Source: Rhodanobacteraceae bacterium (GTDB taxonomy: Bacteria; Pseudomonadota; Gammaproteobacteria; Xanthomonadales; Rhodanobacteraceae). Taken from it: a stretch of 28,996 bases of DNA. The position numbers and the translations under genes are program-made. Each line of letters begins with the position of its first letter. Position 1 is the stretch's first letter. The DNA is taken from the NCBI GenBank assembly GCA_039924705.1, contig JBDTAJ010000200.1, positions 1 to 28,996 on the forward strand. The letters are read 5' to 3'. The notes under the pieces are model-generated. The model ran no database searches. It was given only the letters and a program-made list of their open reading frames with translations, and was not told the origin of the DNA. Shown piece by piece: positions 10,973 through 13,637 of the stretch.

Positions 10973-11803
10973 ATGCCGTTGCGCTTCACCAAGATGCACG
11001 GGCTCGGCAACGACTTCGTGGTGCTGGACGCGCGCGTCACGCCGTTGGAACTCACCGTTGCCAGAGTCCGCGCGCTGGCCGATCGCCGTACCGGTATCGG
11101 CTTCGACCAGTTGCTGATCCTGGAACCTTCGCGCGATCCGTCCTGCGACGCCGCTTATTCGATCCGCAATGCCGACGGCGGCGACGCGCAGCAATGCGGT
11201 AACGGTGTGCGCTGTCTCGCCGCATGGTTGCATCGCGATGGCGCGCTTCCCGGCGACACCGCGCGCCTGCAAGGGCCGGACGGCGTGGTGGATGCGCGCC
11301 TGCTCGACGATGGCCGCGTCGCGGTCGACATGGGCGAGCCGATATTCGAGCCTGCGCGCATTCCGTTCGACGCGCAATCGCAAGCGCTCAGTCACGCGCT
11401 GGACGTGGATGGCGAGTGCGTGACCCTGAGCATTGTGTCGATGGGTAATCCACACGCGGTGGTCGTTGTCGATGACATCGACAACGCGACGGTGGATCGG
11501 CTCGGCCCGCTGATCACCGCGCACCCGCGTTTCCCGAATGGTGCCAACGCGGGCTTCGCGCAGGTGCTCGATGCGCGCACGGTCCGGCTGCGCGTGCACG
11601 AACGCGGCGCGGGTTGGACGCGCGCCTGCGGCAGCGGCGCGTGTGCGGCGGTCGCGGCATTGCACAAGCTTGGCCGTGTCGGCGAACGCGTGCGGGTCGA
11701 ACTGTCTGGCGGCGCGCTGGAGATCGACTGGGTGGGTCCGGAGCGCGCGCTTTGGATGACCGGACAGGCGACCTTCGTCTATGACGGGGAGCTGTTTGCT
11801 TGA
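10973..11803 (+). CDS. dapF: Diaminopimelate epimerase
   Basis: KMHGLGNDF, QCGNG, SMGNPH, ERGAG..RACGSGAC. Confidence 0.96.
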   Translation: MPLRFTKMHGLGNDFVVLDARVTPLELTVARVRALADRRTGIGFDQLLILEPSRDPSCDAAYSIRNADGGDAQQCGNGVRCLAAWLHRDGALPGDTARLQGPDGVVDARLLDDGRVAVDMGEPIFEPARIPFDAQSQALSHALDVDGECVTLSIVSMGNPHAVVVVDDIDNATVDRLGPLITAHPRFPNGANAGFAQVLDARTVRLRVHERGAGWTRACGSGACAAVAALHKLGRVGERVRVELSGGALEIDWVGPERALWMTGQATFVYDGELFA

Positions 11804-11864
11804 ATCATCCCATTGCATGCGCGTGGGCGAATGCGCACTATGCTTCGCAATGCCGCACGGAAAC

Positions 11865-12047
11865 AGGATCTGTTCGCAATTAGCCAAACGGGCCGCGCCG
11901 TCGGCCCTTTGCCTGCAGGGCAACGCATCACGAGGAAGATGTATGTCGATACATAGACGAGTGATAACGCAGCCATGCGGGCAGAGGGCCCCGGCCCGAA
12001 GGGTTGCTGCGCAACGCGGCTCACTTGGCTGACTGCGAACAGACCCT
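11865..12047. repeat. ~183-bp long imperfect palindrome (MITE-like element or structured RNA)
   Basis: 11865-11897 pairs with 12015-12047, 11903-11917 with 11976-11990, 11927-11931 with 11961-11965. Apical ATGTAT-gtcg-ATACAT at 11939-11954. Confidence 0.75.
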
Positions 12048-12048
12048 C

Positions 12049-12732
12049 ATGTCCGACATAACTTTGAAGGCTGGCTTGGAAGCGATGGATGTCGCCGATT
12101 ATCTGCGCCGCCATCCGCAATTCCTCAAGGACTTCCCCGCTCTCGCCCAGGAACTGGTGATCCCGCGCGAACATGGCCCGGCATCGTCGTTGACCGCGTA
12201 TCAACTCGAAGCGCTGCGTGCGCGCAACGAGGAGTTGATGCAACGGCTAACCGCTCTGATAGCGATCGCCGCCGACAACGAACAACTGATGGTGCGCGTG
12301 CACTCGCTCACCATCGGACTGCTGCGCGCGAATACGCTCATCGAAACCTGCCGCAGTTTCGTCGCCGCGCTCAACGAGGATTTCCACACCGATTTGGTGT
12401 GTCTCGCGCTGTTCCGCGGCGACTCCGAGTTGCCGAAAGCCGATTGGCTGTTGGCGTTACCGCAAGGCAAAAATTCGCTGCCGCAATTCACCGAATTCCT
12501 AGCCCGTGGCGAACCGCTATGCGGAAGACTGGCGCAAGACAAGCTCGATCGCCTGTTTGGCGCGCGCGCGCATAAGGTGCAATCGTGCGCGTTGTTGAAG
12601 ATCGGCGATGATGGCTTGCTCGCGATCGGCAGCGAGGGCGTCAACCGTTTCCATCCCGGCATCGGCACGATTTTCCTGAAACTGATCGCACAAGCTTTGC
12701 TAGCTGCACTGCAGCGTTTCCCGGTCGATTGA
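12049..12732 (+). CDS. DUF484 (YigA) family protein
   Basis: MSDITLK...VADYLRRHPQF, SLTAYQLEALRARN, F.PGIGT.FL. Canonical position between dapF and xerC. Confidence 0.9.
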   Translation: MSDITLKAGLEAMDVADYLRRHPQFLKDFPALAQELVIPREHGPASSLTAYQLEALRARNEELMQRLTALIAIAADNEQLMVRVHSLTIGLLRANTLIETCRSFVAALNEDFHTDLVCLALFRGDSELPKADWLLALPQGKNSLPQFTEFLARGEPLCGRLAQDKLDRLFGARAHKVQSCALLKIGDDGLLAIGSEGVNRFHPGIGTIFLKLIAQALLAALQRFPVD

Positions 12733-13637
12733 ATGCGATGACCGAGCCGCTCGCCGCCGCGGTGATGCGCTTTCTGGAATACCTTAGAAGCGAGCGCCGC
12801 TACGCATCGGGCACGATCGTCAATTACCAGCGCGCGTTGGATACGCTGCAAACTTTCGTCAACTCAATCGGCATCGCGCATTGGCGCGAGTTGCGCGGCG
12901 AACAGTTGCAGACATTGGTTGCCAACGAGCATCGCCGCGGCTTGAGCTCCGCCAGCCTGCGCGCGATACTGTCGGCGTATCGCAGCTTCTTCCATTTTCT
13001 CGCGCGCAACGGCGAGGTCGGCGCCAATCCCGCGCTCGGCGTGCGCTCACCCAAGGTGCGCCGTAAATTGCCGCAGGTGCTGGATGTGGATGAGGTCGGC
13101 GCGCTGGTCGAGTTTCCCGCCGACGATCCGGAAGCGGTGCGCGATCGCGCGTTGCTGGAACTGCTGTATTCCAGCGGACTGCGCGTATCGGAACTGTGCG
13201 GCGTGCGCTGGCGCGATCTGGATGCGGGCGAAGGATTGCTGCGCGTCACCGGCAAGGGATCGAAAACGCGGATCGTGCCGGTCGGCAGCCGCGCGTTGGA
13301 AGCACTGGCCGCATTGCGCGAACAGGATTCCCCCGGTCCGGAAGACCCGCTGGTGCGCGGACGCCACGGCCAACCGCTGACGCCCGGTGCGGTGCGCTCG
13401 CGGATCAAGCACCGCGCGCGCGAACAGGGTGTATGGAAGCGCGTGTATCCGCATCTGCTGCGGCATTCCTGCGCTTCGCACCTGCTGGAATCCTCGGGCG
13501 ACTTGCGCGCGGTGCAGGAACTGCTCGGCCACGCAGATATCAGCACCACCCAGATCTACACGCATCTGGATTTCCAGTACCTAGCCAAGGTGTACGACGC
13601 AGCGCATCCGCGGGCGAAACGGAAAGCCAAGGGATGA
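12729..13637 (+). CDS. xerC: Tyrosine recombinase XerC (start at 12729 or 12738)
   Basis: [47 protein letters not shown]. dapF-DUF484-xerC synteny. Confidence 0.95.

What the first reader, a model, noticed from the sequence alone, without database searches (positions are those of the whole stretch)
11865..12047. ~183-bp rod-like palindrome in the dapF/DUF484 junction, ending 2 nt before the DUF484 start codon
Seen: the dapF stop (11803) and DUF484 ATG (12049) are 245 bp apart. AGGATCTGTTCGCAATTAGCCAAACGGGCCGCG (11865-11897) is an imperfect inverted repeat of 12015-12047, and every mismatch in it is a transition (G.U or A.C). Inside are a second stem GGCCCTTTGCCTGCA/TGCGGGCAGAGGGCC (11903-17/11976-90), ATCAC/GTGAT, an apical ATGTAT-gtcg-ATACAT hairpin, and a side hairpin CGGCCC-GAA-GGGTTG (11992-12006). 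The fold is closing stem, asymmetric bubble, upper stem. A separate hairpin lies at 11811-11852. Established: dapF, DUF484 and xerC are usually tightly packed. Inference, three options: (a) a decayed MITE/ERIC-like DNA palindrome, since wobble-compatible mismatches occur on both strands and I saw no target-site duplication; (b) a cis-regulatory RNA that buries the DUF484-xerC translation start, whose preceding nucleotides lie in the 3' arm; (c) a 6S-sized ncRNA, although I do not see the usual 6S motifs and this is not the usual zapA-ygfA locus.
Basis: partly seen in the sequence, partly recalled or inferred. Interest (0 to 1): 0.72.

Follow-up and report, generated by a model that had tools for sequence, protein, structure and literature searches.

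The report
Mobile hairpin element abutting start codons
The 183-bp palindrome is a shortened copy of an undescribed ~268-base mobile repeat of soil Rhodanobacteraceae. The repeat nearly always sits a few bases in front of a gene's start codon and seems to carry its own ribosome-loading site and a short reading frame that hands ribosomes on to that gene.

Summary
The palindrome is real: 33-nt arms, all six mismatches transitions, fold z = -8.9. It is not a one-off. It is an internally deleted copy of a ~268-nt repeat with at least 8 copies in this MAG. I read 144 unique copies at 116 different sites in its Rhodanobacteraceae genus, and weaker relatives occur in 10 more genera. All 29 relatives fetched have an empty dapF/DUF484 junction, so here the element landed between the DUF484 Shine-Dalgarno (SD) and its ATG.

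Family features:
- a covarying ~29-bp closing stem around three hairpins
- no Rfam match, no codon periodicity, no consistent target duplication, and no transposase found
- at 86 of 116 sites the right end lies 0-12 nt (mode 2-5) before a start codon, always in the gene's orientation.

The best-conserved segment is an exposed internal SD (GAGGAAG) plus ATG. Its ~64-codon frame stays open and stops at the element's right edge. That stop overlaps or touches the host start (ATGA, TGATG, 0 to +3 nt) in 71 of 119 cases.

Best reading, inferred and not shown: a MIRU-like relay frame couples translation into the host gene. Orthologous copies diverge about four times less than neighbouring synonymous sites. 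The 6S idea is rejected. This scan has noted start-codon MITEs before on other DNA.

The parts
10973..11803 (+). dapF (diaminopimelate epimerase), the upstream gene
   Evidence: ORF; Pfam DAP_epimerase, E = 1.7e-54.
11859..11862 (+). Host Shine-Dalgarno remnant (GGAA) of DUF484, now 186 nt from its ATG
   Evidence: An empty site in a relative reads GGAAACAAGCCATG (L239), against GGAAAC[element]CATG in the window. This is an inference from alignment by eye.
11865..12047 (+). The repeat element copy: 183 nt, or 11866-12046 between the GGA...CCC ends. It is an internally deleted member of the ~268-nt family.
   Evidence: It matches family positions 1-150 and the right arm, and lacks the third hairpin.
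11865..11897 (+). Left arm of the closing stem
   Evidence: Family covariation of this helix: 20 of 29 pairs show double-sided change.
11903..11990 (+). Hairpin A: lower stem 11903-21/11972-90, purine-rich internal loops, apical ATGTAT-GTCG-ATACAT at 11939-11954
   Evidence: family conservation of at least 90%.
11932..11938 (+). Internal Shine-Dalgarno-like GAGGAAG, 4 nt before the ATG at 11943 (6 nt after GAGGA)
   Evidence: Sequence. GAGGAA/GAGGAG is present in nearly all 141 copies. Mean unpaired probability is 0.73, against 0.26 for the whole element.
11943..12032 (+). Proposed relay frame of this copy: ATG, 29 codons, TGA. It ends inside the right arm, 16 nt before the DUF484 ATG. The frame is shifted by the internal deletion; intact copies stop at the right edge.
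   Evidence: Translation; family statistics.
11992..12006 (+). Hairpin B (CGGCCC-GAA-GGGTTG)
   Evidence: conserved in the family.
12007..12014 (+). Scar where the ~85-nt hairpin C of full-length copies is missing
   Evidence: Alignment to full-length copies.
12015..12047 (+). Right arm of the closing stem
   Evidence: The last 12 nt of the right arm are paired in the ensemble (unpaired probability 0.04).
12049..12732 (+). DUF484 gene, the host gene whose ribosome-binding site was split. It is followed by a xerC-like recombinase gene at 12729-13637.
   Evidence: Pfam DUF484, E = 1.8e-33; Phage_integrase, E = 1.4e-44.

Best explanation
The palindrome is one copy of a non-coding, MITE-like mobile repeat of Rhodanobacteraceae. 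Full length is about 268 nt; this copy has lost one hairpin. In this lineage it inserted between the Shine-Dalgarno (SD) and the ATG of DUF484. Proposed mechanism, inferred and not shown: the element is co-transcribed with the gene and folds into a long closing stem bearing three hairpins. An exposed internal SD-AUG at the tip of the first hairpin loads ribosomes. These ribosomes translate a meaningless ~64-codon frame through the 3' half, melting the hairpins and the right arm. They stop at the element's right edge, on or next to the host start codon, where translation re-initiates by translational coupling. This would keep the host gene expressed, so insertions just before start codons, in sense orientation, survive. 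How the DNA moves is unknown.
For: Mobility:
- There are at least 8 copies in this MAG.
- I read 144 unique copies at 116 sites, 96 of them seen in one genome only.
- The dapF/DUF484 site is empty in 29 relatives, and other filled/empty pairs were found.

Position and orientation:
- A long high-GC3 ORF starts 0-12 nt after the right end in 109 of 144 copies (86 of 116 sites), mode 2-5 nt. The same test outward from the left end gives 7 of 144.

Relay frame:
- The ATG is kept in 140 of 141 copies (the other has GTG), with GAGGAA/GAGGAG upstream.
- That SD is the most open part of the fold (unpaired probability 0.73, against 0.04 for the end of the right arm).
- The frame's stop falls at +1..+3 after the element in 71 of 141 copies and at +4..+15 in 27 more.
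- The stop-to-host-start spacing is -4 in 22 cases, -1 in 17 and 0..+3 in 32, out of 119.
- Only 6 of 91 equal-length copies carry a premature stop. Two open antisense frames carry 13-17, and random placement of the same substitutions gives 33 +/- 5.
- There is no codon periodicity, so the frame does not encode a protein.
- In related genera, copies whose frame closes after 5 codons lie 13-21 nt upstream, with the host's own SD in between.

Structure:
- 404 cells show double-sided compensatory change, against 136 +/- 13 in shuffles and 25-52 in slid controls.

Precedent:
- MIRUs are described as inserting at start codons with a coupled ORF at -4 (PMC12548453).
Against: - There are no RNA, ribosome or reporter data. 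Translation of the frame and re-initiation are pure inference.
- The ATG is also part of a conserved apical hairpin (GUAU-GUCG-AUAC), which could explain its conservation without any start-codon role.
- Stop avoidance in the sense frame is only modestly better than in the antisense control frames (6 against 13-17 of 91), and the copies are not independent.
- Frame-shifting indels downstream of the ATG occur in 16 of 94 copies.
- In 23 of 141 copies, this window's among them, the frame stops inside the element.
- The terminal TAG may simply be part of the inverted repeat.
- Survival by harmlessness does not by itself explain why neutral intergenic sites are so rarely occupied. Some integration preference is probably needed, and it is unidentified.
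- Sense and antisense strands fold equally well.
Confidence: 0.55

Rival explanations
1. The element is a plain selfish palindromic MITE, and the internal SD-ATG frame is incidental. An unknown enzyme integrates it in an oriented way next to start codons. It is tolerated because the closing stem loops the insert out and brings the upstream signal (an SD, or the stop codon of the preceding gene) back next to the ATG, a 'split ribosome-binding site'.
For: - In the window the host SD (GGAA) sits just left of the stem base and the ATG just right of it.
- Left flanks are G-rich at positions -8 to -5.
- Where a left-flank SD exists, the left and right spacers sum to 5-9 nt in 24 of 31 cases.
- The upstream ORF's stop lies within 20 nt of, or inside, the left end in 68 of 111 copies, and often forms TA|G at the junction.
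- Arm-only derivatives of 44-101 nt exist.
- The strong closing-stem covariation fits this reading equally well.
Against: - Left-flank SD strength is not significantly above control (39% against 28% at -4.5 kcal/mol or stronger; p = 0.13).
- Looping out would work in either orientation, yet orientation is about 109 to 7.
- It does not explain the -4/-1 stop-start spacings, the open frame, or why the core sequence is conserved well beyond what pairing requires.
- No integrase or transposase was found.
Confidence: 0.22
2. The element is a domesticated cis-regulatory RNA leader. The closing stem blocks initiation at the adjacent start codon until it is opened or cut, for example by RNase III (as reported for Correia-type elements), by a GGA-binding protein or by temperature. 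This would give many unrelated genes a shared translational control.
For: - Between orthologous copies the core is 0.92 identical. Codon third positions of the neighbouring gene are 0.68 identical, and the left flank is 0.68.
- Orthologues are closer to each other than non-orthologues are (0.91 against 0.84).
- Purine-rich loops with three GGA motifs are conserved.
- Wobble pairs favour the sense strand overall (G-U 459 against A-C 163).
- The last 12 nt before the start region are almost always paired.
Against: - The downstream genes share no function: 145 Pfam families among 89 proteins.
- Sites differ between species, with 96 of 116 seen only once, which looks like transposition rather than a conserved regulon.
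- Within the closing stem the wobble bias is weak (118 against 86).
- Sense and antisense folding energies do not differ.
- There is no known RNA family match.
- Core conservation could also come from gene conversion among copies.
Confidence: 0.15
3. The element works at the DNA level. It could be a recombination or protein-binding site, for example an attC-like or Xer-type hairpin substrate, or a nucleoid-protein site. Its position near starts would then be a by-product.
For: - The palindrome folds equally well on both strands.
- There is no target-site duplication, as with hairpin- or single-strand-dependent recombinases.
- The window copy happens to lie beside xerC.
Against: - The flanking genes are conserved housekeeping loci, not cassettes.
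- The arm sequences that resemble GTTRRRY are variable.
- Y1 transposase presence does not track the element.
- The strict sense orientation and the start-codon register have no DNA-level explanation.
Confidence: 0.05
4. The element is a free-standing small RNA of about 6S size.
For: Only its size and rod-like fold.
Against: - There is no Rfam match for the short or the full-length form.
- It is multi-copy and always lies in sense orientation directly before ORFs.
- No promoter-like or terminator-like site flanks it.
Confidence: 0.01

Closest known systems
MIRUs (mycobacterial interspersed repetitive units; Supply et al. 1997, as summarised in PMC12548453 and PMC3184786)
   Same: Both are dispersed repeats found in operon junctions, in the genes' orientation. 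In both, a short internal reading frame has its stop overlapping the start of the next gene (-4), which is thought to make the insertion harmless through translational coupling. Both show filled and empty sites, and for both the mobilising enzyme is unknown.
   Different: MIRUs are 40-100 bp, often occur in tandem, show 4-nt direct repeats, and have frames that overlap both neighbours. This element is a single ~268-nt unit with a ~29-bp covarying closing stem and three hairpins. It has its own internal SD-ATG, and no consistent duplication was found. There is no sequence relationship, and the host is a gammaproteobacterium.
Correia (CREE/NEMIS), ERIC and RUP-type bacterial MITEs (PMC3184786)
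   Same: All are non-coding, with terminal inverted repeats. They are co-transcribed with neighbouring genes, fold into long RNA hairpins, are often 5' of genes, and have deletion variants.
   Different: Those families duplicate TA and derive from IS630-like or other DDE transposons, and their ends are the conserved part. Here the empty sites show no TA requirement. The arms vary while the interior is conserved, and the register to the start codon is far stricter.
Neisseria REP2 and Borrelia IR upstream repeats (PMC3184786)
   Same: Both are repeats lying immediately upstream of genes, with internal stem-loops and translation signals.
   Different: REP2 and IR themselves supply the promoter, ribosome-binding site and ATG of the gene. 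Here the host's own ATG lies outside the element, and no promoter-like site was found.
Start-codon MITEs noted earlier in this scan (Omnitrophota and CPR bacteria; e1-3317439, e1-4572108, e1-5212549)
   Same: Same logic: a hairpin element on or beside start codons, in sense orientation, with its own ribosome-binding motif and a short frame across it.
   Different: They are in different phyla, are unrelated in sequence and are much shorter (about 80-140 nt). Some are tied to a GIY-YIG parent gene, whereas no coding parent was found here. Those notes are unchecked AI notes.

Membership tests
Bacterial MITE | Many dispersed copies of a small non-coding unit | tested here: met
   At least 8 copies in the MAG. 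31 of 40 genus genomes carry it. No codon periodicity (p = 0.30).
Bacterial MITE | Terminal inverted repeats | tested here: met
   Ends are GGGCCTG...CAGGCCC, with arms of about 29 bp.
Bacterial MITE | Presence/absence polymorphism (filled and empty sites) | tested here: met
   The dapF/DUF484 junction is empty in 29 relatives. Further filled/empty pairs were found.
Bacterial MITE | Target-site duplication | tested here: not met
   Direct 2-nt repeats flank 13 of 103 copies, no more than inverted ones (12). Empty sites show no duplicated bases and no TA requirement.
Bacterial MITE | An autonomous IS with the same ends | tested here: inconclusive
   No end pairs at IS-size spacing in five genomes. 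No transposase among 89 downstream genes. Only a few genomes and families were searched.
MIRU-like start-codon repeat | Sits at or next to start codons, in the orientation of the gene | tested here: met
   86 of 116 sites lie within 0-12 nt of a start. The same test outward from the left end gives 7 of 144.
MIRU-like start-codon repeat | An internal frame whose stop overlaps or abuts the host start codon | tested here: met
   Spacing is -4 in 22, -1 in 17 and 0..+3 in 32 of 119 cases. The window's own copy stops 16 nt upstream.
MIRU-like start-codon repeat | The frame is also joined to the upstream gene's stop, and units occur in tandem | tested here: not met
   Upstream ORFs end at or before the left junction. 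The frame starts at an internal SD-ATG. Units are single.
REP/REPIN mobilised by a RAYT (Y1 transposase) | Co-occurrence with a Y1 transposase gene | tested here: not met
   PF01797 is not found in copy-rich genomes (G011, G013, G017, G047, G055) and is found in element-free ones (G003, G019, G020, G041, G052).
Riboswitch or regulon-specific leader | Downstream genes share a pathway or ligand | tested here: not met
   145 Pfam families among 89 downstream proteins, none in more than two.
6S RNA or any Rfam family | A covariance-model match | tested here: not met
   Nothing below E = 0.5 for the window copy or for seven full-length copies.

The most novel reading that the evidence does not exclude
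The family is a self-contained, portable translation-initiation cassette: a structured leader with its own exposed SD-AUG and a relay frame. It colonises the start codons of housekeeping genes. The host then keeps it under purifying selection, so dozens of unrelated genes in a cell come to depend on one shared RNA module, which makes it a possible global handle on translation.
Probability: 0.3. Interest if true: 0.8.

Novelty: new variant of a known kind. Interest (0 to 1): 0.62.

Why it matters
It would be a clear gammaproteobacterial example of a mobile element that targets, or survives only at, the few bases before a start codon and pays its way by feeding ribosomes into the interrupted gene. 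That idea has so far rested mainly on mycobacterial MIRUs. The family offers more than a hundred natural insertions with matching empty sites, plus natural variants with closed or shifted frames and missing hairpins. Related copies occur in complete genomes of other genera of the family, which may include cultured strains. Translational coupling across a large RNA structure, and the unknown integration mechanism, would therefore be directly testable. For annotation, these elements explain oddly long 'intergenic' gaps and apparently SD-less starts in these genomes.

Tried and rejected
- **Rfam:** no credible match for the window copy or for seven loci with full-length copies.
- **Protein-coding reading:** no codon periodicity.
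- **Sense versus antisense folding energy:** no difference over 129 copies, so it cannot separate an RNA-level from a DNA-level role.
- **Arms copied from flanking host DNA:** no excess similarity.
- **TA or CTAG target, as in IS630-type MITEs:** suggested by the CTAGGG...CCCTAG consensus, but empty sites lack TA and there is no direct repeat.
- **Y1/RAYT mobiliser:** no co-occurrence.
- **Autonomous parent:** no end pairs at 0.5-3 kb. Every partial match I fetched and could read through (others were cut at contig ends) was a shorter deletion derivative.
- **Promoter in the right arm for leaderless transcription:** the candidate hexamer is not conserved (by eye), and nothing is found by scan.
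- **Left-flank SD enrichment:** a weak trend only.
- **'Separate hairpin' at 11811-52:** not above chance.
- **Expression data:** no RNA holder was listed for the window stretch.
- **Earlier scan notes:** nothing by sequence.

Full report
**1. The observation**

The sequence is as described. Arms 11865-11897 and 12015-12047 form a 33-nt inverted repeat, 82% complementary. Read by eye, the six mismatches are all transitions. The inner stem 11903-21/11972-90, the apical ATGTAT-GTCG-ATACAT hairpin and the side hairpin at 11992-12006 all appear in the minimum-energy fold.

Both strands fold far better than shuffled sequence: z = -8.9 on + and z = -8.4 on -. dapF ends at 11803 and the DUF484 ATG is at 12049. 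xerC follows. The 'separate hairpin' at 11811-52 is no better than chance (z = -0.54). No promoter-like or terminator-like site lies in the spacer.

**2. It is one copy of a repeat family**

A search of the window's own genome finds seven further copies at 79-95% identity, plus fragments. That genome is a 1.79-Mb MAG, 76% complete. Alignment shows that most copies are longer, about 268 nt. They carry an extra ~85-nt hairpin between the side hairpin and the right arm. The window copy and the one on contig C130 lack it.

A full-length copy folds into a closing stem of about 29 bp that bears three hairpins (-181.7 kcal/mol, z = -10). Neither form matches any Rfam family.

*Distribution:*
- 18 of 24, then 31 of 40, same-genus genomes have copies, up to 18 or more scored per genome.
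All 80 listed records are MAGs labelled Rhodanobacteraceae, Rhodanobacter, Lysobacteraceae, Lysobacterales or 'Proteobacteria', for example 'Lysobacterales bacterium 66-474'.
- Weaker relatives (68-78% identity) occur in 10 of 29 other genera of the family.
- Runs that hold the window stretch are soil and rhizosphere metagenomes.

**3. It is, or was, mobile**

I extracted 150 unique copies. 97 of them are exactly 268 nt long. 144 passed the end-match filter and were analysed, and they fall into 116 distinct sites. 96 of those sites were seen in one genome only.

The dapF/DUF484 junction holds the element only in this genome. All 29 relatives fetched are empty there. The closest read, for example, GGAAACAAGCCATG, where the window has GGAAAC[element]CATG. 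So the insert sits between the SD and the ATG.

*Other filled/empty pairs show insertion at:*
- an SD-ATG spacer
- a stop/start junction (GGGC TAG ATG)
- the gap between a -10-like box and the ATG of leaderless-type genes.

No consistent target duplication exists and the empty sites need no TA. Shorter derivatives are present: 150-183 nt, and arm-only hairpins of 44-101 nt. I found no coding parent. The Y1 transposase does not track the element, and none of 89 downstream genes is a transposase.

**4. Where it sits**

In 109 of 144 copies (86 of 116 sites) a long, high-GC3 ORF on the element's strand starts 0-12 nt after the right end. The mode is 2-5 nt, and the start codon is ATG in 90, GTG in 12 and TTG in 7. 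The same test outward from the left end gives 7 of 144.

On the left side, a co-oriented ORF stops within 20 nt of the end, or inside it, in 68 of 111 copies. Often the stop is a TAG formed across the junction.

The downstream genes are unrelated housekeeping genes: hflX, pyrD, panC, cytochrome oxidase and so on, 145 Pfam families among 89 proteins. In this MAG they are DUF484, hflK, a CheY-like regulator, pyrD, rsmD, cysD, a GAF protein and a DUF885 protein.

**5. Structure is maintained**

I took 67 copies, one per site. 40 of 79 predicted pairs show double-sided compensatory change.
- 95.8% of cells are paired, against 89.6% in shuffles.
- 404 cells show a change on both sides, against 136 +/- 13 in shuffles (0 of 500 reach the observed value) and 25-52 in slid controls.

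The arms (positions 8-24) are the variable part and the interior is at least 90% conserved. This is the reverse of a classical MITE.

Orthologous copies are 0.92 identical in the core and 0.86 in the arms. The adjoining gene is 0.68 identical at third codon positions, and the left flank is 0.68. Orthologues are closer to each other than non-orthologues are. This points to purifying selection, or to homogenisation among copies.

**6. The internal start and frame**

The most conserved stretch reads GAGGAAG-NNGT-ATG. The first ATG of ATGTATG varies (ATG, GTG, ACG and others), but the second is kept in 140 of 141 copies, with GTG in the other. The SD-like GAGGAAG is the most accessible part of the fold: unpaired probability 0.73, against 0.26 overall and 0.04 for the last 12 nt of the right arm.

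From that ATG the frame is open for 64 codons. The other two sense frames are closed.
- Its stop lies exactly at +1..+3 after the element in 71 of 141 copies, and at +4..+15 in 27 more.
- The spacing from this stop to the host start is -4 (ATGA) in 22 cases, -1 (TGATG/TAATG) in 17, 0..+3 in 32 and +4..+10 in 18, out of 119.

These are the classic distances of translationally coupled genes (PMC12548453).

Premature stops occur in 6 of 91 equal-length copies. Two open antisense frames carry 13-17, and random placement of the same substitutions gives 33 +/- 5. There is no codon periodicity, so if the frame matters, only its openness does.

In related genera the ATG is kept. Where the frame closes after five codons, the copies that have a downstream gene lie 13-21 nt upstream, with the host's own SD in between. 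Several open-frame copies again show the ATGA overlap. This sample is small.

**7. Reading**

*Shown:* a mobile, structured, non-coding repeat family with a very strong, oriented association with start codons, and with a conserved internal SD-ATG-open frame-stop arrangement in register with the host start.

*Inferred:* ribosomes load at the internal SD-AUG, unwind the 3' half and hand over to the host start by coupling. This would make these insertions harmless, as proposed for MIRUs.

In the window copy the deletion shifts the frame. It ends at TGA 12030-32, inside the right arm and 16 nt before the DUF484 ATG. A ribosome stopping there would still have melted the stem.

*Weak points:*
- The ATG is also part of a conserved hairpin.
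- The margin over the antisense control is modest.
- 16 of 94 copies have frame-shifting indels.
- Harmlessness alone does not explain why ordinary intergenic DNA is so rarely used, so an unidentified integration preference is likely.

The main rivals are a simple loop-out 'split RBS' (supported by spacers that sum to 5-9 nt in 24 of 31 cases, but with weak SD enrichment) and a domesticated regulatory leader.

**8. Comparison and novelty**

The closest analogues in logic are MIRUs. In form they are the Correia/ERIC-type MITEs. In position they are Neisseria REP2 and Borrelia IR.

The family fails the MITE criterion of a target duplication, and it has no known transposase. It differs from MIRUs in size, architecture and its internal start. 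This scan has earlier noted start-codon MITEs in Omnitrophota and CPR bacteria. Those notes gave me the lead to test a relay frame, which I then tested here on independent DNA.

I class it as a new variant of a known kind. The window's copy is an ordinary, partly degraded member. The family is the interesting part.

Noticed in passing
G000 contig C58:9055-9251 (- strand; L008): A copy lacking its left arm and the 5' part of hairpin A is fused to a nucleotide-sugar dehydrogenase-like ORF that ends early (293 aa). It lies just upstream of cysD. This looks like a deletion or rearrangement with one end inside the element.
   Followed up: partly
G000 contig C69:2697-2991 (L004): This copy, upstream of rsmD, carries an internal tandem duplication of about 28 nt (tcggccctttgcccgcagggcaagacat, twice) in the lower stem of hairpin A.
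   Followed up: no
L130 (DATFGL010000265.1), compared with L127 and L156: A chimeric copy: its left flank and left arm match the copy at one site, and its right arm and right flank match the hflX-site copy. It is either recombination between two copies or an assembly join across the repeat.
   Followed up: no
L169, L177, L154, L109, L234, L124, L192, L211: A sub-variant with an extra small GC-rich hairpin (CCCCCGGATCAAGTCCGGGG) inserted after the left arm. It still lies 2-5 nt before start codons.
   Followed up: no
G012:C100:44316-44379, G012:C102:2988-3031, G012:C74:23566-23622, G018:C1:1639278-1639378: Arm-only mini-hairpins of 44-101 nt made of the two terminal arms with little or nothing between them.
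   Followed up: no
L284-L303 (other genera of the family): A diverged subfamily with ends AGAGCCTG...CAGGCTCT and the same three-hairpin plan. In eight of the copies read the internal frame closes after 5-9 codons. These copies sit further from start codons or beside gene ends.
   Followed up: partly
window 11825-11858 and the matching stretch in L239-L267: A conserved motif just upstream of the DUF484 SD in nearly all relatives (about GCGAATSCGCACACTSCGCGCAAC). It may be an operator or promoter element of the DUF484-xerC unit.
   Followed up: no
L145 against G000 C162; L221 against L194: Empty sites show -10-like boxes (TAAACT, TATAAA) 6 nt before the ATG, that is, leaderless-type genes. The element has inserted between box and ATG, which should turn a leaderless mRNA into one with a ~270-nt leader.
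   Followed up: partly
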